52,485 nt of DNA, filler included, from Mitosporidium daphniae (GCF_000760515.2; 2 parts of 2 records of this genome joined end to end with filler, not necessarily neighbours in it); one strand, 5' to 3'; shown: positions 11,637 through 30,173, counted from the first letter of the whole stretch. Notes: a model not told the origin generated them from the letters alone. Numbers and translations: made by a program.

Positions 11637-14600
11637 TTAGTCAATATGGAAACGCCGTTTTTCAAGTCGGTACGGCGTTGAGATGGAGTTTCGCCGCGGT
11701 TTGATGTTTGGATGGGGAATCGGCATTTTTTCTTTTTCTTTTTCTTTATCTTCATCTTCATCTTTAGCATTCCCATTTCTGCGAGATCTACGGCGGAAGC
11801 AGCAGAAAAGGCGCCGAACTATCCAAAGCGCCAGTTTGTATATGCGGCGCCATCGATGCAAGTAGATAAAGATGTAAATGATAAGTACGGCGATCACCAC
11901 CAAAAGGACGATGATGACAAAAATCAGGAAATTGTGGTTACCCTGGACATCATGAGGGTCGTCACCCTTAAACCTGATGCCCATGGAAGATTCTGAGGAG
12001 AAATTTTTTACCCAGTTCAAAATGCGGATGATGCTTGCAGTGGTACCGGACTTTGGGAACCCTTCTGGCGGCTTGACACACTTGCGCTCACGCACCATGA
12101 TTTGGGCCGTGGGTTCGAGACCTAGAAATTCCCTGGTTCCGTTCGCTTCAACATTCAGTGTAGTTTCATTTTCGCCGCTTTTTTTTCGGGCCGCGAAACA
12201 GTCAAGTATGGGTATCGGGTCGCACTTGGGCAAAGGGCAGAGAGCCGTCAAATTGTGATCAGCCCCAGAATTTTTCTCCTTTAAGTCACACGCTGGCCCT
12301 TCAAACCCAGGCATACATATGCACTCAAATGCGTGAATACTGTAGCTCTTTTGCAGCATCCGTCCATTTTTGCAGTTGGCGATATCACATCTCGGTCTCG
12401 ATAGGTCGGATGAAATCCAGCCGTCATAGCAATAGGCACAAAAAAGCGTTCTGGGATCTGTCTGCCCGTGTTGACAAACAGAGGAATCGCAGAAACGCCC
12501 CTGGCCAATGCGGCACGAGCCACTTAAGCAAGAACCATCGAGCGAATTTTCATCCAGGATCCCATGTATGCATCGTGCGATGCGCGTACATTTGGGTCCA
12601 TATCGCCCCAAGGGACATTGCAAGCACTTTTGTGTGAGTGGATCCATCTCTGTAACAGGATTGCATCCAGGAGTCGAGCAATCTGGCCCAGACCAATCTC
12701 CCAAGCAGGCAAGACAGAGCGGTTCTTCCTTGGATGAGAATTCTCTCCAAAGCCATTGGGAAGGTTTTGAAGATCCCCCCTCAATAAGTGCCTTCGGGTT
12801 AAAAATTCCATTCTTGCAAGCCATTTCTTCACAGGTTAGACTTTTCAACCAGCCATCGTGACAGCGGTAACAACCGCCATTCTCCAAATCTGGAGAGCCG
12901 TGTATGCATAAGGGTAAATTGCAGAGATCGCCAGTCCAGCCTGGCGGGCATTGACCGCAAGTATGACTGGCAATGATTGTGGCATAGCCTGGACGCCATG
13001 GCGGCTTCAGTTGAACTTCCACCCCGAAAGTGTCCGTTATCTGAGTGGTATTTGAAGCAGGGCACCATTTGCGTGGCTTGTCGCAGGCCTGGCCACCCCA
13101 AAAAGAAGGATTGCAAGAACCCTCCTTGCAATATCCATGTTCAAGGTCGGGAATCCCATGCACGCAAATTGGAATGTCGCAATAGTTGCCAAGTCCGGTG
13201 TTCGGCACTGGCAATGTCTGCCAGCCAGGCAGGCAGCCATGTGAGCAGCCATCCTGGATCCCCAGGGCGGGGATAATGCATCGTGTTTCATTACAAAACC
13301 GCCCAAAGTAGTACGGTGGGTTGCAGCGGGGCCTATTCAGGGCCTGATCGACCTTGCATAATCCTTGTTCACTCTCCAAATCGAGATCACCATGTATGCA
13401 ATTCGATTTCCATTGGCAGAGGTGGCCATGGTGCCCTGGGCTACATCGCCGACACCTGCTACTATCAGGATCCCACTCTAAGCACCAAGTTCGTTGACAT
13501 CCCGTCCCATAAAAACCAGGAGGACAGGCCATTTCCTCAGGTACCTGGACCCCCATCCTACGGAACGAATCTACAACTGATTTTTCGGAAGACTTCATTA
13601 ATGGACCCTCTATCGTCTCTTTGCAGAAGGGCAGCTCTGGATTTCCATGAACGACCTCGAGTATGCCCTTACGAATATCATCCGGTTCTTGCGTAACCCT
13701 GGATTTCCAACAAAAGCTACACTGCCCAAAGTCATTCTCGCTGGGAACAAGTAGCGCATCGGAAAAATTCGGGTTCAGATCTAATAGCTCTTTTCGTTGA
13801 AGGATTCGTCTGATGATAGCTAGATGGTTCTGCTGAACTTTTCTCTTAACACCCTCAGGTTCGACTACTGACTCTGTTACCATGAAAAGATCTTTAGCAC
13901 CGGAGATACGTTGTACCCGTATGCCGCCTGGCAAGCATCGCAACGGAGAAAAGCTTGTTGGTAAGATGATCTCTGATCTAGGCAAAGTTTCCTCGAGAGA
14001 TTTTTTCCAATGATTGTAATTATCGATGGGGAAGATCCGTCTCTGTGCTTCTGGAATCGCTTCAAAAAGTACTTTAGTGAGATGGTATTCCGTGAGTTTG
14101 AAGACGAAGCGGTCTGTTTTTTGATCCCGCTGCGAAAAAACGAGCACACGAAGCAGATGCATGAACCCTACAGGCAGGATATCCTCTGCTCGCCGTTCTA
14201 AACTTGCCATTCGATGCTGCAATAGGGCAGAGGAGGCGCTGTGGGCTTCACCAGCTTCGAGTTTAAGAGCTTCAAGAAAGGACTCTAAGAGGCTGCGCCC
14301 ATCGCTTGCTACCTTTCTCCAGGAAAGCCAGGAGGTACTAGATGCCTCAATGAGCGGTTTTAGCTTTTCACCCTCAAGAACCACATCCATTGAGAGAAAC
14401 CGGATACGGCTGACAAGTGCTTGCAGGAGACTATCTACATTCTGTATTAGGTCAAGGGCGTTCGCTGAAAGTGTTGCTGATTCACCTATTGCTAGTAGCG
14501 CCTGAACAAGCTCATCACGATTTTCTGGAAAATACCGCGGGATAAGGTTCCCAGAGGAACTCATATCGGACACCTTCTTCAATATGTGGGCACACGTCCA

Positions 14601-17600
14601 TTTTTCGCAGTAAGGCCCCTTAAATCCAGGCCTACATTGACACCCGACACCCGGCTCTGGGTCAAGGACACCATTTCCTTGACTTTGGGCAAGTGCCAGT
14701 TGCGCTAAGGTCAAAGGGACACCTCCACGTGTGGAGCACAATGAAAAATCACATCCAGGCGCTCTAGCCATTGCTGGATGGAGACATTGACTGTCTTCCT
14801 TGGATACTTTTGCTTCAATCGATAGCCACCCTTTAACAAGGGCATTTGGAGATATGGGCGCCGCTAATCTTTCCTTCCTGCCTGTAGAATGGTAAACAAT
14901 GTTATTCCCGCCAGAGTCTGGAAAAAGGCTAGCTGTGCCTGCACGTAGATCCATAAGCAATGCTTCAATCCAGTGTGCTGTTTCCAGCACCTGTGAGGGT
15001 ATTTTATCCGGATCTGGGAGACTCGACTGAAATAGGACCTGGTTTGGCTGCACAATTAATGGCTGGTCGCAATATGGTCCCGTCCATCCGGCTATGCACG
15101 TTTCCTCGTAGCAATAGAGAAGCGGATGCATCATATTTGGCAATCCATGCTCGCAGGCCAAGTCCCAGCAGTACGGGCCCCTCCAACCGGCCTTGCAAAT
15201 ACCAAGCTCACGATTTTGGAAGTTTTTTTTAAGCGAATGAAGAGGAGATGCCTCATCTGTTTCCGAAGAGGAAGAGGCTTCAAGTTGGCAGAAAGGACCA
15301 TAAGCATCCTCGCGCCTGCAAGGCGTTCCTTCCAAGCAAGCCCCGGAGCCTGAATCTAGATCTGGAATGCCCCACTCGCAGCGTGAAACCCATTGGCAAA
15401 GCAAACCAAATCTTTTCAACGTGGTGCATTTGGCGCATTTGATATAAAGAATATCCCAATGCTCGCAAAAACTCTCATTGCAAAGTGGCCCCCAAAAGCC
15501 CGGGAAGCACGGCCCACAAAGCTTAAGATGGGGGTCCCAAAGCCCATGATAACACGGCAAGTCATCTGCATCCAACTCACAGTATGGATTGAAAACCTGG
15601 TTTTTGTTGTCTAAAAGGGGCTCCCCCAAATTTTTTTGGTGACTTTGTGTTTCCGGTTGATGATAGCATGCTGAGCAGCGCCCATCCTGTGGGGCGCGAA
15701 TGATAAAATTGTCCGTACTACCACTGAGCAGCCTCCACATTTTCAACAAGTTTTTGTTCAAGTAATCACTCTCATATGAGCACCCATTTGAGCTCTCAAC
15801 CGCAACAAGTTTGGGTGGGAAGGGAAGTAATGCACCATTTTCGCTGAAATGGTCTATGCGCATCCCATCCGATCTGCAGATAAATCCGAATTGGCAGAGA
15901 GGAACATCGCATGCAGCGCCCTTCCAGCCTTGTTTGCACTGGAGGCAGTATCCGGTGGCTGTATCTAACATCCCATTAGCACAAATCGGTTCAGAACATT
16001 CGGAACCTCGCCAACCATATTTGCAGATGCACTTTCCGGTGAAGCGGTCTATCTCCGCCGTATGTTGCTTCTCGCAATGTGGAGATATAAGTGTGCAGAA
16101 GGTACCCCAGTACGGAAAAAGGCAATCGGAAGATCCTGGATTCGCGCCATCAACATAGGCCTGCATATTGCACCAAGACCCAAAGAAGCCCTTGCGGCAT
16201 GCTTTGCACCCATCTTTCGTGGTCGCTCCTATGCTATTGATGGAGCAAGAGGCTGCAAGCGAAGAACCGCACCATTTTCCAAGCTCTTCAAGTGTCATCA
16301 GAGGAAGTGCATCAGCATTACAACCATCAGTGCATGCGCTGACATCTTTGTTGAATAGTGTTTTGATGCCTGACCACCATGAGCTAGAGCTAGTCAAATG
16401 ATCATCCTCATCATGGGCACTAAGAAGGGGACTGTCCTTTTTTTCCGGTGTAACGCACATAGGTATTTCGCAAAAGTTGCCCAAGAAGCCTGGAGGGCAT
16501 CTGCCCTTACACCCAATCTCTGAGGTATCAGCTGAAACAGGGCAACGAGATCTCTGGCAGATGGGACCGGTCCAGCCGCGCTTACAAGCCTGCGCCCATA
16601 TTTGGCCCTCCGAAACTATAGACATCGATTGATCATCGTCATCAAGCTCTCCAACATCCATGAAGAGCCCATTGCTTTCAAAACAGTCTTTCCCAAAAAA
16701 TAGCGGATCTCGCCAGCAAGGATCAATGCATATGCCGTCTTTAGAGGCGGTATCGGTTTCTCCAGCCTGTTCATTGCATGATGTTGGTCTCGCTCTTTTA
16801 TATTGGAGTTCTTCGCCAGTTGCCTCAATTTGAACAGAACAGTGCTCGCCTGTACGTCCCGGCATGCAAAGTGTCCCATAGCAGGCAGCACTCAGATATG
16901 CATCCTTACCTCCATTCAGGGGTTCTGTGATCGGGATGATTGTGTCATCTTTTCCTAAGAGCACCGGCTGGATACAACCAGTCTCCTGGCAAAGATTTCC
17001 TCCAAAGATTTCGTGGTAGCAAATGCATCCATCATTTGTTGGAGAGGGTACACCATGTTGACAGGTGCTTTGCAAACAGTAGGGTCCTCCCCATCCAGGC
17101 TCGCATTGAGCGCACCACCTGGGGTCAATATCACCTCCCTGTTGTTCCCACATCATCGGCCACTGCATACACGTGGATCTCTCACATTTTGAGCCCATCC
17201 ATCCAGGATCACACTTGCAACCATGGCCATTTGGCAAGATCTTGCCATGTCCCCCGCAAATGAATTCGCTACCTTCGCAGTATGGCAGTGAATATTGCCT
17301 GGAATCACACGAAATGCATGTTCCATCTTCCCAATTAACGACGCCGTTCTGACACCGAGGCTTATCGCAATAAAACCCTTCAAATCCTGGCTTCAAGCAT
17401 GGCTGAATGCAGGGCAGTTCCGGCCATTTTTCGTAGTTCGGATTTCCATGCACACAGTGGAGCTTGCAGTCCTTTGTGCAGCCGCTTCCAGGTTTTCCGT
17501 TCATTTCAGAACCCAAATCGCATTGTTCACTGGTGCCCTCCATGAAGAAATAGTAATGTCCTGGGTGGGTGTGGCCCCAGTTACAGAAGATCGGAACCGT

Positions 17601-18452
17601 CATAAACGGATCCTCGTAACCACAGATGAGAGCATGGGGCATCAGACTTGTATAGCGACGACCATATCCGTGTGAAAGCCCTGCATGTGGTGCTGTTAGC
17701 TCTACAATACCGTTTCCGCAGTAGTGCAAAAAAACATTCCGAGTCTCCATGCCTGAATTACAGGCACTTGCAACCAAAGGTCCCCAGCGGCACTCCCGCC
17801 AACAGCCTACCTTTTCGCCATATGGACAATCATAGTTCATTGGAGGTGTGAGCATTGGAGCATATGGGCCCCCCATGGCACTGCGAGCGCCATCGCCAAG
17901 TTGCTCAAGTGCCTTGAATTCACAAGATTCTCCGGTGTTAATTACCCCGTCTCCACATACTGCTGGGCGTAACTCGTCTGAAAATACTGAGCGTAAATAG
18001 TGTAACACAGGCATTGGTGTGCCAGCAGGCGCACACTTGGCTTTTTCCAGCAACCCGATAGCGTATTGTTTCCCGGATCGAGGAAGCGAGTGCAAATGGT
18101 AGAATAAATCCAGATTCCATCCATCATAAATATTGCCATCTCCGCCTGCAGATGCAAACGACTTATCTGGGTCATATCTATTATCGGGCCTGATGATATT
18201 CTGCATATAAAGCCCATAGTCAATGGGTAAGTAAAACTCCGAATAAATTCGCCTATGAAATAAGGTTTGCGGAGAAGGAAATGCATTTAGCCTTGCTCCT
18301 GAGTAAGAGTCTATGGATCTCCAATTGAGAGGTTTATATCTTTTTTCCCTTGCCAACTCATGGAAGCATATTTGATTTGAAGAAATGATATGGTCCTTGT
18401 TGAAAAGAACGCAAACGAAAAGAAAAAAAAAGCAGATTCCCTTATGGGACAT
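11637..18452 (-). CDS. Giant (~2271 aa) Cys-rich, EGF/laminin-EGF-like repeat type-I membrane protein
   Basis: Single ORF. ATG 18452 begins a signal-like MSHKGICFFFLFVCVLF, followed by many CxxGW/FxGxxC repeats, CGDG/CGNG Cys-rich motifs, a C-terminal hydrophobic helix FLIFVIIVLLVVIAVLIIYIFIYL and a basic tail. Confidence 0.85.
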   Translation of the reverse strand: MSHKGICFFFLFVCVLFNKDHIISSNQICFHELAREKRYKPLNWRSIDSYSGARLNAFPSPQTLFHRRIYSEFYLPIDYGLYMQNIIRPDNRYDPDKSFASAGGDGNIYDGWNLDLFYHLHSLPRSGKQYAIGLLEKAKCAPAGTPMPVLHYLRSVFSDELRPAVCGDGVINTGESCEFKALEQLGDGARSAMGGPYAPMLTPPMNYDCPYGEKVGCWRECRWGPLVASACNSGMETRNVFLHYCGNGIVELTAPHAGLSHGYGRRYTSLMPHALICGYEDPFMTVPIFCNWGHTHPGHYYFFMEGTSEQCDLGSEMNGKPGSGCTKDCKLHCVHGNPNYEKWPELPCIQPCLKPGFEGFYCDKPRCQNGVVNWEDGTCISCDSRQYSLPYCEGSEFICGGHGKILPNGHGCKCDPGWMGSKCERSTCMQWPMMWEQQGGDIDPRWCAQCEPGWGGPYCLQSTCQHGVPSPTNDGCICYHEIFGGNLCQETGCIQPVLLGKDDTIIPITEPLNGGKDAYLSAACYGTLCMPGRTGEHCSVQIEATGEELQYKRARPTSCNEQAGETDTASKDGICIDPCWRDPLFFGKDCFESNGLFMDVGELDDDDQSMSIVSEGQIWAQACKRGWTGPICQRSRCPVSADTSEIGCKGRCPPGFLGNFCEIPMCVTPEKKDSPLLSAHDEDDHLTSSSSWWSGIKTLFNKDVSACTDGCNADALPLMTLEELGKWCGSSLAASCSINSIGATTKDGCKACRKGFFGSWCNMQAYVDGANPGSSDCLFPYWGTFCTLISPHCEKQHTAEIDRFTGKCICKYGWRGSECSEPICANGMLDTATGYCLQCKQGWKGAACDVPLCQFGFICRSDGMRIDHFSENGALLPFPPKLVAVESSNGCSYESDYLNKNLLKMWRLLSGSTDNFIIRAPQDGRCSACYHQPETQSHQKNLGEPLLDNKNQVFNPYCELDADDLPCYHGLWDPHLKLCGPCFPGFWGPLCNESFCEHWDILYIKCAKCTTLKRFGLLCQWVSRCEWGIPDLDSGSGACLEGTPCRREDAYGPFCQLEASSSSETDEASPLHSLKKNFQNRELGICKAGWRGPYCWDLACEHGLPNMMHPLLYCYEETCIAGWTGPYCDQPLIVQPNQVLFQSSLPDPDKIPSQVLETAHWIEALLMDLRAGTASLFPDSGGNNIVYHSTGRKERLAAPISPNALVKGWLSIEAKVSKEDSQCLHPAMARAPGCDFSLCSTRGGVPLTLAQLALAQSQGNGVLDPEPGVGCQCRPGFKGPYCEKWTCAHILKKVSDMSSSGNLIPRYFPENRDELVQALLAIGESATLSANALDLIQNVDSLLQALVSRIRFLSMDVVLEGEKLKPLIEASSTSWLSWRKVASDGRSLLESFLEALKLEAGEAHSASSALLQHRMASLERRAEDILPVGFMHLLRVLVFSQRDQKTDRFVFKLTEYHLTKVLFEAIPEAQRRIFPIDNYNHWKKSLEETLPRSEIILPTSFSPLRCLPGGIRVQRISGAKDLFMVTESVVEPEGVKRKVQQNHLAIIRRILQRKELLDLNPNFSDALLVPSENDFGQCSFCWKSRVTQEPDDIRKGILEVVHGNPELPFCKETIEGPLMKSSEKSVVDSFRRMGVQVPEEMACPPGFYGTGCQRTWCLEWDPDSSRCRRCSPGHHGHLCQWKSNCIHGDLDLESEQGLCKVDQALNRPRCNPPYYFGRFCNETRCIIPALGIQDGCSHGCLPGWQTLPVPNTGLGNYCDIPICVHGIPDLEHGYCKEGSCNPSFWGGQACDKPRKWCPASNTTQITDTFGVEVQLKPPWRPGYATIIASHTCGQCPPGWTGDLCNLPLCIHGSPDLENGGCYRCHDGWLKSLTCEEMACKNGIFNPKALIEGGSSKPSQWLWREFSSKEEPLCLACLGDWSGPDCSTPGCNPVTEMDPLTQKCLQCPLGRYGPKCTRIARCIHGILDENSLDGSCLSGSCRIGQGRFCDSSVCQHGQTDPRTLFCAYCYDGWISSDLSRPRCDIANCKNGRMLQKSYSIHAFECICMPGFEGPACDLKEKNSGADHNLTALCPLPKCDPIPILDCFAARKKSGENETTLNVEANGTREFLGLEPTAQIMVRERKCVKPPEGFPKSGTTASIIRILNWVKNFSSESSMGIRFKGDDPHDVQGNHNFLIFVIIVLLVVIAVLIIYIFIYLHRWRRIYKLALWIVRRLFCCFRRRSRRNGNAKDEDEDKEKEKEKMPIPHPNIKPRRNSISTPYRLEKRRFHID

Positions 18453-18906: not shown

Positions 18907-21900
18907 CTACCAGAAGGGACACCTAAAGTGAGAAAAACATACTTGCTTACCATCCGACATAACACTGGCACAGATTTTCAATATCTGTAGCCTGGTCGAT
19001 AAGCAAAGACACCTGGCTTTTGTAGTCCAAAGGCTTTTCTTGATGCTGGAAATCGGTTCCCGCCAGTTTTTCGGAAACTCTACTTATGGCCTTGAGCACC
19101 TTTATCGTGGCATGATCTTGAGGCATGCCATCTTCTTCAGCGACGGGCAAAAGGTCATCTATCCCTAACCAATATGCAATAAATACCTTTTGGCCTGTTA
19201 TTTACATCATGGTCAACAATAGAAGAGGGCAATTCAATGAAAAAGGAGGAAAAGGCCTTTTTCGATAACTCGGGTGGATATGTTGACATTTGATCAGATA
19301 TCGGTTCCGGAGTGCTTGATAGCCGCATGCTGATAAGGGGATCATAGATGAAGGCCTCCAGAACCGCCAATAGGCTCTCTTTGTTTGAGCGCAAAACGCG
19401 AAGAACGTGTTCGCAAATTATGCGAAACATTCCTCTGGTCTTTGACACCTCCATAGCATTTACAAGCATTCGAGTAAGCCGAAACGGGACCTGCTCTGGA
19501 AACTTTTCGCGATGAATGGACACCTACGGTAAATGATAAAAGCAGCCGATCCTAACCTCAAAGCAGTCTCCAAAATCGATATGTATGATGCGGCCGCTTT
19601 CGCGGTCGACCAGCAAATTTGACGGGTGACGGTCGCCTAGCCCAAGAACATATCCGACCATAGACATCAAGGCAAGGCTTTTCTGATACAAAGTACGCCT
19701 TTCAAGCCAATGTTCGGTGGACTTTGATTGCAGCCAAAAGATTTTAGACAGCTCATCTCCCGGAAATGTATTCAAAGCCGAAGTGAAGATCTCAATCTTG
19801 TGCAACATTGGGAGAGAATCATAATTTGACGAGTTCTACATCGAAAATGATAAATAGGCGCCGAAATACCTTGAGCATGTGCTGGTGCTCATCAATCAGG
19901 GGAATGTTGCGTTCCGAACGGTAACTCTTCAAAAGATCATGAATGGTATCGCAGCGCCTGACCCAACCGAGTAGTCCAGTGGTGGGCGAGATCGGAATCA
20001 CAGGATACTTTTGAATTTGAAGATGGCGTCTTTTGGTTTCTGCATCCTCCAACAAAATGCTATTGACAAGGCCAAAAAACTGCATCACCCTTTCATCTTG
20101 TCGAAGATCTCCGTTTCCTACAAAGTGTAATTGTACCACGTACCTTTCAACAGAAATTTGTAAACCAACCCGTCGGAGCCGATTATTTTCAATTTTTTTG
20201 GTCTTTGTTTTGATTGGATCAGATTGATGGTCGGTTGAAATGAAGCTATGCAAACCGCCGCTGTGGGGCCATAAGAATACGTGCCTAATCGCATTAGGGG
20301 CCAAAAATACCTGGAACGGCTAGCTGAAAATCTCGCTGCGAAAATATGGAAGGGCTCACAGAGGAAAGGTTTATATCATGAAAGAGAGCAAGAGTTTGGC
20401 TCAACTGCTCAAATACATTTGTATACAAATCCCAGGCCAGAACTAGATCTTCAGAATTTTTTGAATGCAAGTAAGTAAGAATATATTCTCTCGCCTTTTT
20501 CAGGACAGATCCGTATTGTTCGATAAAATTAGCCTCGTCCTTGGTTTTGGGTTCTTGCTGGATTACTTGGTGGAGATAATCCAGTATTCGTATGGAGCCA
20601 GAAATATCCTTCTGCGCGTGATACAGCCTGCTGGCTTCTTCGAGCCCATCAGACCACAGCTCAGACCATAAAACAGCAACACGAACCAATTCATTGCAAA
20701 TCAGGAGAGTCTATCAGCGGTAAATAAATTGGGGGAATCAAACCTGATCCACCAAAACAGGGGAGGACAATCTGATTTTGTTAAGCAATCCTATGGCAAT
20801 GGACTTTCTTTGTGAATTGGTCGATTTAGATGCAACGGCAAGGCTGTACAGCAACGATTGCGGATGTGAATTATTGATTTCCAACAGCAGCTGATGTACA
20901 ATTCGCCTGATCGAAATATTACTTATTTGGATACGAGCAATGAGCTAAGATGAAAAATGCAAAGTGGACATACTTGAGGTATGACTTGAAGCCATGCATC
21001 GATTGGCAGTATCGAGCATCCATTCAAAAAGGATTTTTGTATAGAGGGGTGCGAGCCATATTTAAATAGCAGTGTCAAGATGCGTAGCAAATCTTGGATC
21101 GACGATTCGTGCTTGTTAAGCGAAATGGACTTTATTAGCCCGGAAATGGCTGAAATGATGATGTTGATCAATGAGGAGCTTGTCTCACCATCACTGGATT
21201 TGGAGTCCTTAAAAAGGGAGTGGGGCGATGCGGGAAAATTTGAGCGAGCCAGTTTTGAGGCCGCTTTTGTCGAATCGTGTTGGCTAATTAGCTCGATGTT
21301 TGACAAAGCCCAGGAATACCATGACTTGTACGAATTGCTATCAAGCTGGATTGAAAATTTTTGAAGAGTGATGATGTCAGATGAAAAGGTACTTTCTTTC
21401 GAAAATAGATTCCGTTCCATATATAAGCCGGTGGTGCCTGCGGACTCAATAGAGCTGCTTCCCATTGCCTTTTTCCATTTAGAATACAACACTAGCAATT
21501 TAGATAAAAAGGCGTGAAGGTTGTTGGACACCGAAACATCGCTGTCTTTGGTGGAAAGAGTTTCCTTCGTAGATAGCTGCTGCAAATTCGACGTGATCGC
21601 CTCAACGCTGTTTTTGTCCGCCAAATTCCGGGATGCCAACATACCGCCATTCAATGGCTCAATTAGCTTCAAAATGTGGCTGCACACCAAAAACCCATTG
21701 CCACTAATGCCGTTGCAATCGCAATCTGGGCACAATGTTGCTATCACAAAAGAAATCAACTTGGACAAAACGGTGATGGACAGCTCATGCTTTTGGAGGT
21801 CGTTGAGGATCTTTGAGAGATTCAAAATCAAATGAAATAACTCGAAATTATTGTAAAATTCGACGAAAAGGCTCGAAATCGAAGATGAGCTAAATGCAGG

Positions 21901-26349: not shown

Positions 26350-29300
26350 GGCGGGGCTTGAAAATTTCGGCCTTTTCTGAATCTATCCTTTCAAGCCTGT
26401 TGGAATCGGCGACTTCTGCAGAAAAATCAACTTCATTCCTTCGGAACCAAAAGCTCAATTTGTTTTCTAGCTACATAAAGGAATGCAAACGCCTGGGCCT
26501 GTTAAACTGCGTTCCCGTTGAACTCCAGTCTGGAATCTTATCTCCGCTGTCAAATGGCTTCAACACTTGCTTTTTGAATTATCCCGTGCTTTTGAGCGCT
26601 TTCAAATTGCACGGTAACGATCGGGCTGTTGGCGAAGCCCATGCTCCAAACGAGCTTTATCGGGTGATTTCCAACATTGAGGCCAACTTTGTCGGGTTTT
26701 TTGAATTCATCCCGGGCTTCAAAAAGGCTGTCATATCGATTTCGGGGCTCTCCACGATTGACCAGACGTCCAAGATTCACAGAATCGTTGGTACTCTATT
26801 TGAGTGGCTGTGTATCAATTCTGTTCTTGCAGACTCTAAGGTGTCCAGATTCCATTTGCTGGCCTGCAAACTTGTTGGCAACTGGTCCGTTTGTAATGCC
26901 AGTCAATGCTGCATGTTGGTCAATTCCGCGGATGTTTTTGATGTGTTATGTGTGGTTGAGCTGATTTCAAATAGCATGCCAACGTTGTCAATCGAAAATG
27001 TGTCCAAACTTATTGGCTCCTTGAAATCGGAACTTGTTGACATGCAGCACAAAACCAGGCATTTTGACGGCAAGAATGCCATTTCAAACGAGTTTGTTGA
27101 CAAGCTTGATTTGCTTCTGACCGAAGCTCGGGCATGTGCTTGTAAACATGGCTTTATTACATCGTTGAGCACGAGTCCCTTGTACGAAAAACGGGCTCCA
27201 CTCGAACGCAGCGATTCTTCATCTTGTGCTGCATTTACGGACAAAATTCTGCTGTTGGCGCAACACGTGATTTCGGTGTTGAATTCGATCTCAATACCAC
27301 GGGATGTCGGATTTGGCTCAATTGAAAATACGATTCCGCAGCTTTATGTATTGTTCAAGATGCTATTTTCGGATGCCTTTTATGCCTCGCTCCACGGGCT
27401 ATTAGACATTTCTCCAAATCCATGTGGCTTGCCATTGATGACGATGCTTGTATCGATGCTACACGTGATGGTCCGATTGTTTCTTATTTTTGTAAATTCA
27501 CTCTCCGAGTTATCGATTCACACGATTGCCTCAATTGCAGCGATTTATGAGAACAACTTTGGAGAGGTATCGACATCATCAAAATCGGACCCCACAACAG
27601 CTGATGGCGAAGGTTGTGAAGCGCAACAAGGCCCCATGCGTGCAGATGATGGCACCGAGCTTCCAAAAGGCATGGCAGACTGTAAGGACGTCCCTTCTCA
27701 ACAATCCAAGAACGTTTCAAATGAAATTGAATATGAGGAGCAAATATCCGATGTCAAGCAACAATCGGACGAAAAGCACAGTGAACAAGATCCCGAAGCA
27801 GACAAACAAAACGACATTCAGCCGCAAGCAGAAAATGAGGCTGCCGTAAGTACTAGTGAAAAGATGGATGGCATGCAGGATTGCAGAGACCAATCGGAAT
27901 TTGAGAAAAACACCCGATCCGATCAAAATGATGCTCTTGACGAGGCAGAGACAGAAGGTGCTGATACTTTAGCTGCTTCACAAGAGGACCGCATTTGTGA
28001 CAATCAGTTTAAGGAACAGCTAAATGAGGAAGAAGATTCCAGTGGCATGGCAAATGACGAAATACTGGAAAAACTGAACACCGATTCGTTTCCGCAGCAT
28101 CTTGATCAAAGCATTTGGCAGGATGACCTCTCTTCCGATAATGAATTGTCCGAGGTCGATGAGGGTGGTGATTTTGCACACCAGGACGCTACCCCCGCTG
28201 CACGAGAGAAAGATCTTGCTCGCAGAAATGACAAATCTGTTACGGAAAAACCTGGCTCCTCATCAAGTTGCGAGAGAAAGCCTAAACAGGAAGAGAGTTC
28301 TCTGGCTAATGTCGATTTATTGGACCAGGATAAAGGTATCTGTGGTGTTGATGCGGATGATGTTGATGCGGCTATGGAAGATAATTTATGCAAAGATCGC
28401 ATTTCTATGGACGAAGACGTTGATGCCGATCCAAATGGCTTTGACACCGAATCAAAAAGTCTTGATGCTGACCCAAATGCTTTGCAGGATCATACAGAGG
28501 GTATGGATGATGAGAATATTGAAGCCTCTGCCCAGCCAATGGATCCTTATCAAGAGGAGGCTCTTGCGTATGGCGAAATCCCACAAAACTTGGCCCAATT
28601 TACAGATGAAGAGAAGAGCCCATCACAAGGCACGAATGATGATATTAACTCGGAAAACATCGGCATCGATTGCAACTCGGATAACATCGGCACCGATTGC
28701 AACTCCGAGAAACAGGATCAGTTCGGAAAGGCCTCAAATGGTCAGCTCGATGATGCTTCAAACAAGGAACGTGCGAACCTGATTGATCAACTGCTTGAAT
28801 TACCTCCACAACACAACGACCTGCAGTGTAGGAGGATATTAGGGGATCAGCTGGCCACGTGGAGAGACCTCTTGATGTCGCTGGAAAATTCTGCTCCAAA
28901 CTCTGCACCGGAAAATGGCTCGCAGAATCCAGAGGTCTTTGAATATGATTTGGACGACCCACTCGCGTCCAATGTAGACTCTGCGCACGTTCTTTCTCAA
29001 ATATCGAAAGAAGATTTTAATGATGCGCCATCCTCTTCTGCATTGAATAACCCTATTCAAGGGCAGCGGGGTAAGAGCCTTCCATTACAACAGCCATTTG
29101 ACCAAATTTCTTTGAACAAAGACAATGATGGCTCACATTCGGAAGCTGAAACTTGTAACGCAAACGTTGAAGGCTTGGATTCCTCTTTCTCGACAATTGA
29201 GACTGAACCGCAACATGATTGCATTGAAGATATGGACGATGACCGTCCCTCTGAGATGGTTTTATCCCCCGGCTATAGGAACCATAATTGGCCAGAATAC

Positions 29301-30173
29301 CTGCATGCTACGTATCCACTTGCATGCGAGTTGACAGAGAAACTTAGAATGGTCCTAGATCCTACCATTGCAGGAAAGTTGCAGGGCGACTACAAAACAG
29401 GAAAAAGGCTGAACATGAAAAAAGTTATCCCCTACATTGCTTCTGGCTATCGACGAGACAAGATTTGGCTACGAAGGACCAAGCCATCGAAAAGAAACTA
29501 CCAAATCCTGATTTCGGTCGACCAAAGCCTGTCGATGGAGTCCTCTGGCGCCCCCCATCTACTTTTTCAAGTCATTGCGCTGTTGTCTCAAGCATTTTCG
29601 AAAATCGAGGTTGGCCATGTCGGTTTGGCCGGGTTTGGAGCCGAAACTCATTCTTACATCGCTCTTCCCGGGTGTAGCTCGGACAGCAACTTTTGCTCCC
29701 AATTCAATGAGAACATTGGGGACCAAATTTTGGCAAACTTTCACTTTAACGCGGAATCCACAAATCTCCTTTCTCTGCTTTCAAAATCCTTACAATGGTT
29801 TGAGCAGGCAAAAAGCGCCTCTTTTTCTGCTTGTTCCCAAATCCACTTTATCCTGACAGACGGCATATTTAATAATTCCGATCAAATAAGAAAACTCTTG
29901 AACCAGTTTTCGGCGCAAAGGATCCTGGTTATCTTTTTGCTACTTGACGCCCGTTCTTCGAGAGATTCCATTCTAGAGCTAAAGTCCGTCGCATATGAAT
30001 TTGATGGCACGAAGCCAATCATGAAGATAACCAAATATATCGACCAATTTCCTGCCAAGCACTACTTGGTGATCAGAGATATCTCCACGCTCCCTTCTAT
30101 CTTTTGTAAATGTTTAAGGGAGTGGATTGAAGGCATAAACAGGACCTCTGTCTGTGAAACCTTTCGCTATTAA
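26350..30173 (+). CDS. MDN1: Midasin/Rea1, C-terminal part (linker, D/E-rich region, VWA/MIDAS); partial
   Basis: Long acidic tract followed by 'LQGDYKTGKRLNMKKVIPYIASGYRRDKIWLRRTKPSKRNYQILISVDQSLSM'. Confidence 0.95.
28656..28709 (+). repeat. 27-nt in-frame tandem duplication in midasin (NIGxDCNSx x2)
   Basis: aacatcggcatcgattgcaactcggat / aacatcggcaccgattgcaactccgag. Confidence 0.75.

What the first reader, a model, noticed from the sequence alone, without database searches (positions are those of the whole stretch)
11637..18452. Giant EGF-like/Cys-rich single-pass surface protein in a highly reduced genome
Seen: ~2271 aa with a signal-like N-terminus, dozens of repeats like CxxPxCxHG...GxCxxCxxGWxGxxC, one TM helix near the C-terminus, and a basic tail with a CC pair (RRLFCCFRRR). 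Known: such ectodomains typify animal and amoebozoan adhesion or phagocytic receptors (tenascin, MEGF10/Draper, laminin-EGF) and are uncommon in fungi. Inference: keeping 6.8 kb for it among core genes suggests a host-attachment, invasion or host-cytoplasm-engulfment receptor.
Basis: partly seen in the sequence, partly recalled or inferred. Interest (0 to 1): 0.8.

Follow-up and report, generated by a model that had tools for sequence, protein, structure and literature searches.

The report
Giant stripped-down EGF-stalk parasite surface protein
A compact-genome gut parasite of water fleas, an early relative of microsporidia, carries a 2,271-residue protein built of 30 shortened, four-cysteine EGF-like repeats that is predicted to stick out of its cell membrane and likely helps it hold on to its host.

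Summary
The ORF is real: 2,271 aa, unchanged in contigs of 4 of 4 runs laid, and identical in sequence to a Mitosporidium daphniae hypothetical protein whose older model lacks the signal-like N-terminus. Only one full-length relative was found (an unnamed metagenome protein, 60% identical), keeping 149 of 151 ectodomain cysteines. The repeats are EGF-like but not canonical: 30 units have four cysteines (EGF C1 and C3 missing) plus 5 two-cysteine half-units, a reduced form of the SCARF/MEGF-type repeat. A 290-aa cysteine-poor, predicted helical domain of unknown fold is inserted into one unit. The tail's CC pair is not conserved; a terminal RRNS-containing motif is (16 of 21). It has no EMI domain, NPxY or YxxL motif, so it is not a MEGF10/Draper member, and an engulfment receptor is unsupported. 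Best reading: a lineage-restricted type I adhesin or tether (about 0.5); rival: a structural part of the spore or polar filament. There is no expression, location or fold evidence, and the deep profile search could not be run, so relatives in Rozella or Paramicrosporidium are not excluded.

The parts
11637..18452 (-). Whole ORF, 2271 aa (P0001), predicted type I membrane protein; no intron needed
   Evidence: no base difference inside the ORF in contigs of 4 of 4 runs; full-length 60% orthologue P0003
18378..18452 (-). Signal-peptide-like N-terminus, residues 1-25; missing from the older public model P0002
   Evidence: hydropathy in both orthologues at 32% identity; not run through SignalP
17973..18377 (-). 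N-terminal head, residues 26-160, no family match; candidate ligand-binding region (inferred)
   Evidence: 54% identity over 26-139; no Pfam hit at E<=5; AF2 uninformative
17457..17972 (-). Two CG[DN]G cysteine-rich motifs with internal inserts, residues 161-332, DUF4215-like by pattern
   Evidence: 14 of 14 Cys in 140-333 conserved, 67-69% identity; pattern in both orthologues; Atlas lead DUF4215 score 0.76 only; no Pfam hit
17913..17945 (-). 33-nt in-frame GT..AG stretch removed as an intron in P0002; likely coding
   Evidence: encodes C177 and a GESCEF motif that P0003 keeps
15069..17456 (-). Repeat block 1, residues 333-1128: 17 four-Cys EGF-like units and 3 two-Cys half-units
   Evidence: residues 790-900 pass Pfam cut-offs for EGF_Teneurin (31.7 vs 24.3) and EGF_laminin (24.9 vs 21)
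14787..15068 (-). Cysteine-free linker, residues 1129-1222
   Evidence: 41% identity; no Pfam hit
14592..14786 (-). Repeat block 2, residues 1223-1287: one half-unit, one four-Cys unit and the first Cys of the interrupted unit
13722..14591 (-). 290-aa Leu-rich, predicted mostly helical domain inserted between the first and second Cys of one unit; fold unknown; holds the one unassigned conserved Cys (C1506)
   Evidence: 55% identity over 1290-1640; no Pfam, PDB or confident Atlas match; AF2 pLDDT 33
12288..13721 (-). Repeat block 3, residues 1578-2055: rest of the interrupted unit, one half-unit, 11 four-Cys units
   Evidence: 46 of 46 Cys conserved, 70% identity over 1641-2058; residues 1910-2060 pass EGF_STAB1-2 (31.9 vs 27)
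11928..12287 (-). Membrane-proximal region, residues 2056-2175, four conserved Cys
   Evidence: no Pfam hit
11859..11927 (-). Predicted transmembrane helix, residues about 2176-2198
   Evidence: Kyte-Doolittle 3.74
11640..11858 (-). Basic 73-residue tail: amphipathic stretch after the helix, non-conserved CC pair, variable middle
11640..11702 (-). Conserved terminal tail motif, residues 2251-2271, with an RRxS site and an R-x3-S-x-P site
   Evidence: 16 of 21 identical against 29 of 73 in the whole tail, permutation p 0.002; motifs in both orthologues

Best explanation
The ORF encodes a 2,271-residue protein with a hydrophobic N-terminus, 30 four-cysteine EGF-like units and one long hydrophobic segment near its end; it is predicted to be a type I membrane protein that likely serves the parasite as a long disulfide-stapled stalk for attaching to host surfaces. 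Shown: the architecture, the four-cysteine repeat and its conservation in one relative. Inferred steps: (1) it is secreted through the ER, where about 75 disulfides form, two per unit (EGF C2-C4 and C5-C6); (2) the units, mostly joined by four residues, form a semi-rigid rod tens of nanometres long; (3) the non-repeat parts, the N-terminal head (26-332) and the inserted helical domain, are the likely binding or oligomerising parts; (4) because such an ectodomain needs an oxidising compartment, it most likely acts on the spore or sporoplasm surface, in the gut lumen or in a vacuole, rather than bathed in host cytosol; (5) the conserved tail motif is likely phosphorylated and controls trafficking or coupling to the cytoskeleton, without the tyrosine motifs of engulfment receptors.
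For: Hydropathy and charge bias in both orthologues. 149 of 151 ectodomain Cys conserved at 60% overall identity, and the two that are lost (C859, C891) lie in one loop and are lost together, as a disulfide pair would be. Profile of 20 of the 30 units aligns to Notch and SCARF1 EGF with C3 replaced; a profile from a MEGF-type array scores 22.5 bits against at most 6.3 (whole sequence) in 394 reported of 400 shuffles. Long EGF or Cys-rich stalks with one helix are adhesion or phagocytic receptors elsewhere (PMC2651865 and PMC9692275 passages). Spore adherence through surface proteins precedes microsporidian invasion (PMC7040029 passages). No paralogue or other relative among scored candidates.
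Against: No expression, location or binding data. No recognised ligand-binding domain; no RGD and no conserved heparin-binding motif (3 in P0001, 0 in P0003). The ectodomain is well conserved (60-70%) and shows no difference among the runs laid, which is not what a fast-evolving host-contact protein would show, although the whole 11 kb is nearly invariant (3 differences, none in the ORF). Only two sequences support all conservation arguments. EGF stalks also serve as structural spacers, so architecture does not fix the function.
Confidence: 0.5

Rival explanations
1. It is a structural membrane-anchored component of the spore: part of the polar filament or anchoring apparatus, or a linker between plasma membrane and spore wall, cross-linked by disulfides.
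For: M. daphniae has a coiled polar filament (PMC6282948 passage), yet known polar filament proteins were not detected in it by HMMs (PMC5701793 passage). Polar tubes are solubilised by reducing agents (PMC7040029 passage). Apparent single copy and high conservation fit a structural role.
Against: No Pfam match to any polar tube or spore wall family. Cys parity is explained almost wholly by intra-unit pairs, leaving one candidate free Cys, and P0003 has an even number in that domain. A conserved phospho-type tail motif suggests regulation. The spore wall proteins seen in the table passage are 20-107 kDa, far smaller.
Confidence: 0.2
2. It mediates parasite-parasite recognition or fusion (mating, plasmodium organisation) or senses contact or wall stress for the parasite's own signalling.
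For: Conserved ectodomain without sign of diversification; conserved RRxS tail motif; closest solved-structure matches are teneurins and Notch ligands, which are cell-cell contact proteins (their function recalled).
Against: Those matches are limited to the generic EGF half-motif; no Ser/Thr-rich mucin stretch as in fungal wall sensors (maximum 11 of 40; sensor feature recalled); no homophilic domain recognised.
Confidence: 0.15
3. It is an engulfment receptor that works like CED-1/MEGF10/Draper and helps the parasite take up host cytoplasm, a relic of rozellid phagotrophy.
For: Repeats look derived from the SCARF/MEGF-type unit, including two-Cys half-units. Rozella engulfs host cytoplasm and M. 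daphniae lacks the nucleotide transporters of other microsporidia (PMC5701793 passages).
Against: No EMI domain (1 Cys in the first 110 mature residues, no Pfam hit); no NPxY, YxxL or ITAM in either tail; microsporidia are described as lacking an apparent capacity for phagocytosis (PMC6282948 passage); a heavily disulfide-bonded ectodomain suits host cytosol poorly (inference).
Confidence: 0.1
4. The ORF is a host contaminant, a recent transfer from an animal, or an assembly artefact.
For: GC of the gene (0.488) is above that of several neighbours (0.418-0.487), and EGF arrays are typical of animals.
Against: It lies between TOR and triosephosphate isomerase on single contigs in 3 of 4 runs; GC3 0.47 lies within the neighbours' 0.44-0.49; no animal protein scored in three searches; a 60% full-length orthologue exists.
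Confidence: 0.03

Closest known systems
SCARF1 / MEGF10 / CED-1 / Draper receptors
   Same: Type I topology, long tandem EGF array, H/N-G and D-P-x-x-G turns, interspersed two-Cys half-units
   Different: Units lack EGF C1 and C3; no EMI head; no NPxY or YxxL tail motif; inserted 290-aa domain; no orthology-level score
Teneurin / tenascin EGF repeats (PF25024, PF23106)
   Same: Best Pfam and PDB matches: E 4e-15 for the whole protein, below the cut-off; teneurin chains E 4e-5 for a 68-aa fragment
   Different: Their repeats have six Cys; none of their other domains was matched; teneurins are type II and tenascins secreted (recalled)
Acanthamoeba mannose-binding protein MBP1
   Same: Signal peptide, N-terminal head, Cys-rich stalk, one helix, short tail; a protist adhesin (PMC9692275 passages)
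   Different: No DUF4114 hit, only 5 CxC motifs among 155 Cys, no NPLF; nearly three times as long
Giardia VSP / high-cysteine membrane proteins (features recalled)
   Same: Cys-rich type I surface protein of a gut parasite; 14 CxxC motifs
   Different: No VSP Pfam hit; apparently single copy; 73-residue tail; EGF-type C5-C6 motif
Microsporidian polar tube and spore wall proteins (PTP1-5, SWP, EnP1)
   Same: Secreted, Cys-containing candidates for host contact in the same clade (PMC7040029 passages)
   Different: No sequence match; that review's main text has 0 occurrences of EGF; this protein is much larger and repeat-built

Membership tests
EGF-like domain (canonical) | Sequence similarity to EGF profiles above curated cut-offs | tested here: met
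   2 of 15 fragments pass: EGF_Teneurin 31.7/24.3 and EGF_laminin 24.9/21 (790-900), EGF_STAB1-2 31.9/27 (1910-2060); P0003 passes EGF_STAB1-2 27.9/27. Whole P0001 passes none.
EGF-like domain (canonical) | Six Cys per unit, three disulfides | tested here: not met
   30 units with four Cys, 5 with two, none with six; C3 position replaced in alignments to Notch1 and SCARF1
EGF-like domain (canonical) | EGF fold and disulfide pairing | tested here: inconclusive
   AF2 model of residues 25-480 had pLDDT 28
Laminin-type / MEGF-type EGF repeat | Eight Cys per repeat | tested here: not met
   Reference array L001 shows eight-Cys spacing; best P0001 match (777-819) keeps six of eight
CED-1/MEGF10/Draper | N-terminal EMI domain (PMC2651865 table) | tested here: not met
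   No Pfam hit in three N-terminal fragments at E<=5; 1 Cys in residues 26-135
CED-1/MEGF10/Draper | Multiple EGF-like motifs and one transmembrane helix | tested here: met
CED-1/MEGF10/Draper | NPxY and YxxL tail motifs (recalled) | tested here: not met
   0 matches in both tails
Teneurin / tenascin | Domains beyond the EGF block and their topology (recalled) | tested here: not met
   Only EGF families matched; helix is C-terminal
ADAM / disintegrin proteins | HExxH metalloprotease motif and disintegrin domain (recalled) | tested here: not met
   No HExxH in either orthologue; no disintegrin hit; PF00200 count for M. daphniae is 0 in Table S4 of PMC12449221
DUF4215 cysteine-rich repeat | CG[DN]G...E-x-C-D...G-C-x3-C pattern (recalled) and profile match | tested here: inconclusive
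   Pattern present but split by inserts; Atlas 0.76; no Pfam or NCBIfam hit on that region
Acanthamoeba MBP1 | DUF4114 head, CXCXC repeats, NPLF tail motifs | tested here: not met
Microsporidian polar tube / spore wall proteins | Location in the polar tube or spore wall | not testable with these tools
   needs proteomics or immunolocalisation
Type I membrane protein | Cleaved signal peptide by a dedicated predictor or N-terminal sequencing | not testable with these tools
   only hydropathy and conservation were available

The most novel reading that the evidence does not exclude
This is the host-attachment or invasion protein of short-branch microsporidia: an ancestral EGF-stalk receptor, stripped to a new two-disulfide repeat and carrying an inserted domain of new fold, that forms part of the early polar-filament or spore apparatus in which no known polar filament protein has been found, and that long-branch microsporidia later lost or replaced.
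Probability: 0.15. Interest if true: 0.8.

Novelty: new variant of a known kind. Interest (0 to 1): 0.5.

Why it matters
How the earliest microsporidia attach to and enter hosts is open: known polar filament proteins were not detected in M. daphniae (PMC5701793), and a published Pfam census of 29 rozellid and microsporidian genomes has no row for any EGF family searched (PMC12449221 Table S4). This protein is a concrete, conserved, predicted surface-exposed candidate that can be localised in a parasite kept in laboratory Daphnia. A whole stalk of four-cysteine EGF-like units with a large domain inserted in one loop is also of structural interest. The EGF label itself is not new: UniRef already names the truncated model 'EGF-like domain-containing protein'.

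Tried and rejected
No whole genome was held, so copy number rests on homologue searches alone. The deep HMMER search of 1.84 billion representatives never ran (queue full on 10 of 10 tries), so distant relatives are untested; the three word-based searches are of limited sensitivity and proteins longer than 3975 aa were not searched (2 of 3802 candidates; 0 of 3914; 0 of 7993). AlphaFold2 on two-sequence alignments failed (pLDDT 33 and 28); no fold search was run on these models. Atlas lead for the insert towards PI4K/PIK-type clusters (0.84-0.88, recognition low) was not supported by Pfam or PDB and is treated as noise. A PDB hit of the insert to an engineered gp41 helical construct (E 0.067, single stretches E 19 and 44) is treated as chance amphipathic-helix likeness. 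Pattern scans: JGI metagenomes 0 of 598 and 1 of 189 stretches; that one, L001, is a generic eight-Cys MEGF-type array at 22-36% identity, not an orthologue; prokaryote genomes 0 of 34; viral contigs 0 of 62. No RNA holder listed, which says nothing on expression. A covalent dimer through C1506 was considered: it is the odd Cys in P0001, but P0003 has four Cys in that domain, so it is left open. Palmitoylation at the CC pair is not a conserved feature. No calcium-binding EGF, O-fucose or O-glucose consensus. No paralogue in the window. The original species description (Haag et al. 2014) was not held and was not read. Paper searches: Mitosporidium+EGF 1 unrelated listing; microsporidia+EGF-like+polar tube 0; Rozella+EGF 3 listings, one read in passages; locus tag 0; EGF-like+early-diverging fungi+transmembrane 0; four-Cys EGF terms 6 listings, none read, none evidently on such a repeat; two searches gave nothing useful.
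Full report
Observation. The window holds one uninterrupted frame at 11637-18452 on the minus strand, 2271 aa, between a triosephosphate isomerase gene and a TOR kinase gene. Contigs of 4 of 4 runs laid (2 studies; one may be the source) show no difference inside the ORF, and 3 of 4 span the 11 kb in one piece. The protein has 155 Cys; the strict EGF-end motif occurs 18 times against a shuffle mean of 0.03. The N-terminus and residues about 2176-2198 are the two strongly hydrophobic segments, followed by a basic tail.

Identity. The sequence clusters with a Mitosporidium daphniae hypothetical protein (P0002, DI09_71p70) and has no substitution against it; P0002 only lacks 93 residues: the first 82, including the signal-like segment, and 11 removed as a 33-nt intron. 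The one other relative found, P0003, is an unnamed 2296-aa protein from a 109-kb ENA contig, 60% identical over the full length. It has the hydrophobic N-terminus and keeps the 11 residues with C177, so the long intronless model is the likelier one. Its organism is unknown; its DNA could not be fetched, so synteny is untested. M. daphniae is a gut parasite of Daphnia with a polar tube (PMC12534020 passage), 5.6 Mb and 3331 genes (PMC5701793 passage).

The repeat. Assigning Cys by hand between residues 333 and 2055 gives 35 units: 30 with four Cys and 5 with two, leaving only C859, C891 and C1506 unassigned. The last Cys of one unit is followed by the first of the next after four residues in 20 of 29 cases, the last two Cys are 8 or 9 apart in 27 of 35, and C-x-[HNWF]-G follows the first Cys in 15 of 30. 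A profile of 20 of the 30 units aligns weakly (E 0.012-0.09) to Notch1, SCARF1 and Tie2 EGF domains; the four Cys correspond to EGF C2, C4, C5 and C6, C3 is replaced, and the previous unit's last Cys sits where C1 would be. A profile built from 20 units of a generic MEGF-type array (L001) matches residues 777-819 at 22.5 bits, including the two-Cys half-unit, with C1 and C3 replaced; shuffles reached at most 6.3 bits for the whole sequence and 10.3 for one stretch. Two of 15 fragments pass Pfam cut-offs for EGF families, the whole protein passes none. The repeat is thus EGF-like but has lost the C1-C3 pair throughout. The pairing C2-C4 and C5-C6 is inferred from EGF chemistry, not shown. That C859 and C891 are lost together in P0003 while 149 of 151 ectodomain Cys are kept supports disulfide bonding.

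Non-repeat parts. Residues 26-160 match nothing. Residues 161-332 hold two CG[DN]G motifs resembling DUF4215 repeats split by inserts; support is a weak Atlas lead. Residues 1288-1577 are a Leu-rich domain with amphipathic helical stretches lying between the first and second Cys of one unit; a smaller, 72-residue expansion occurs in the unit at 853-958, and both expanded units have a 28-residue last loop. The insert is about 55% identical in P0003, so it is under constraint, but has no Pfam, PDB or Atlas assignment and did not fold. In the tail the CC pair is replaced in P0003, the middle is 25% identical, and the last 21 residues are 76% identical (permutation p 0.002). Both tails hold an RRxS site and an R-x3-S-x-P site, which fit PKA and 14-3-3 consensus motifs (recalled), and neither has NPxY, YxxL, ITAM, dileucine or PDZ motifs.

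Distribution. Three word-based searches found no relative beyond P0002 and P0003, and pattern scans of metagenome, prokaryote and viral contigs found no orthologue. The sensitive profile search could not be run, so absence from Rozella, Paramicrosporidium or other fungi is not shown. Table S4 of PMC12449221 (3363 rows, 29 genomes; searched by term, not read whole) has no row with EGF, laminin, tenascin or DUF4215, nor the six EGF accessions tried, while control accessions were found; it also misses this protein, so it cannot exclude equally divergent ones. GC3 matches neighbouring genes, giving no sign of recent transfer.

Mechanism. The most likely reading (0.5) is an adhesin or tether: a membrane-anchored rod of small disulfide-stapled units presenting a head and a mid-stalk domain to a host surface in an oxidising compartment, with a phospho-regulated tail. 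Every functional step is inferred from architecture and analogy with EGF-stalk and Cys-stalk receptors (PMC2651865, PMC9692275 passages) and from spore adherence in other microsporidia (PMC7040029 passages). Against it: no known binding motif, a conserved rather than variable ectodomain, and no expression data. A structural role in the polar filament or spore wall (0.2) draws on the failure to detect known filament proteins in this species (PMC5701793, PMC6282948 passages). Self-recognition or sensing (0.15) and Draper-like engulfment (0.1) are weaker; the latter fails on EMI and tail motifs.

Comparison and novelty. It works like other EGF-stalk surface receptors in outline but is not a member of the MEGF10/Draper, teneurin, tenascin, ADAM or MBP1 families by the features tested. 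Short EGF variants exist elsewhere (recalled), but my searches of the held library found no description of this protein or of EGF-repeat proteins in microsporidia; the species description was not held, and it or its supplement may mention the gene. Verdict: a real, new variant of a known kind of protein, a good candidate for an open question, with function undemonstrated. Interest 0.5.

Noticed in passing
window 26913-30173 (+): 1086-aa ORF with a long D/E-rich stretch and a C-terminal VWA-like region (VWA_CoxE E 0.028); looks like the C-terminal part of midasin/Rea1 (recalled). No Pfam hit above cut-off.
   Followed up: partly
window 18907-18960 (-): The TOR gene's last codons appear split by a 28-nt GT..AG intron (18923-18950), showing very short introns in this genome and explaining why a 33-nt intron was called in P0002 (read).
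   Followed up: partly
window 9821, 10830, 19164: All 4 runs laid differ from the window by the same single base at these three places: either polymorphisms or errors of the window's assembly.
   Followed up: no
window 11719-11779: Low-complexity, purine-rich repeat within the tail-coding part (E/K/D run), skipped by the read-laying tool; the run is absent from P0003.
   Followed up: no
L001 1-2721: Open frame of at least 906 aa made of about 20 regular eight-Cys MEGF/laminin-type EGF repeats; used only as a reference for the canonical unit.
   Followed up: partly
window 402-52376: The other long ORFs are ordinary core genes by Pfam: DEAH helicase, EF-hand protein, Ulp1 protease, TPI, TOR, CysRS, eIF3c, DHH phosphatase, bZIP, UEV, Nrap, pseudouridine synthase, HMG box, Yippee, MIF4G.
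   Followed up: no
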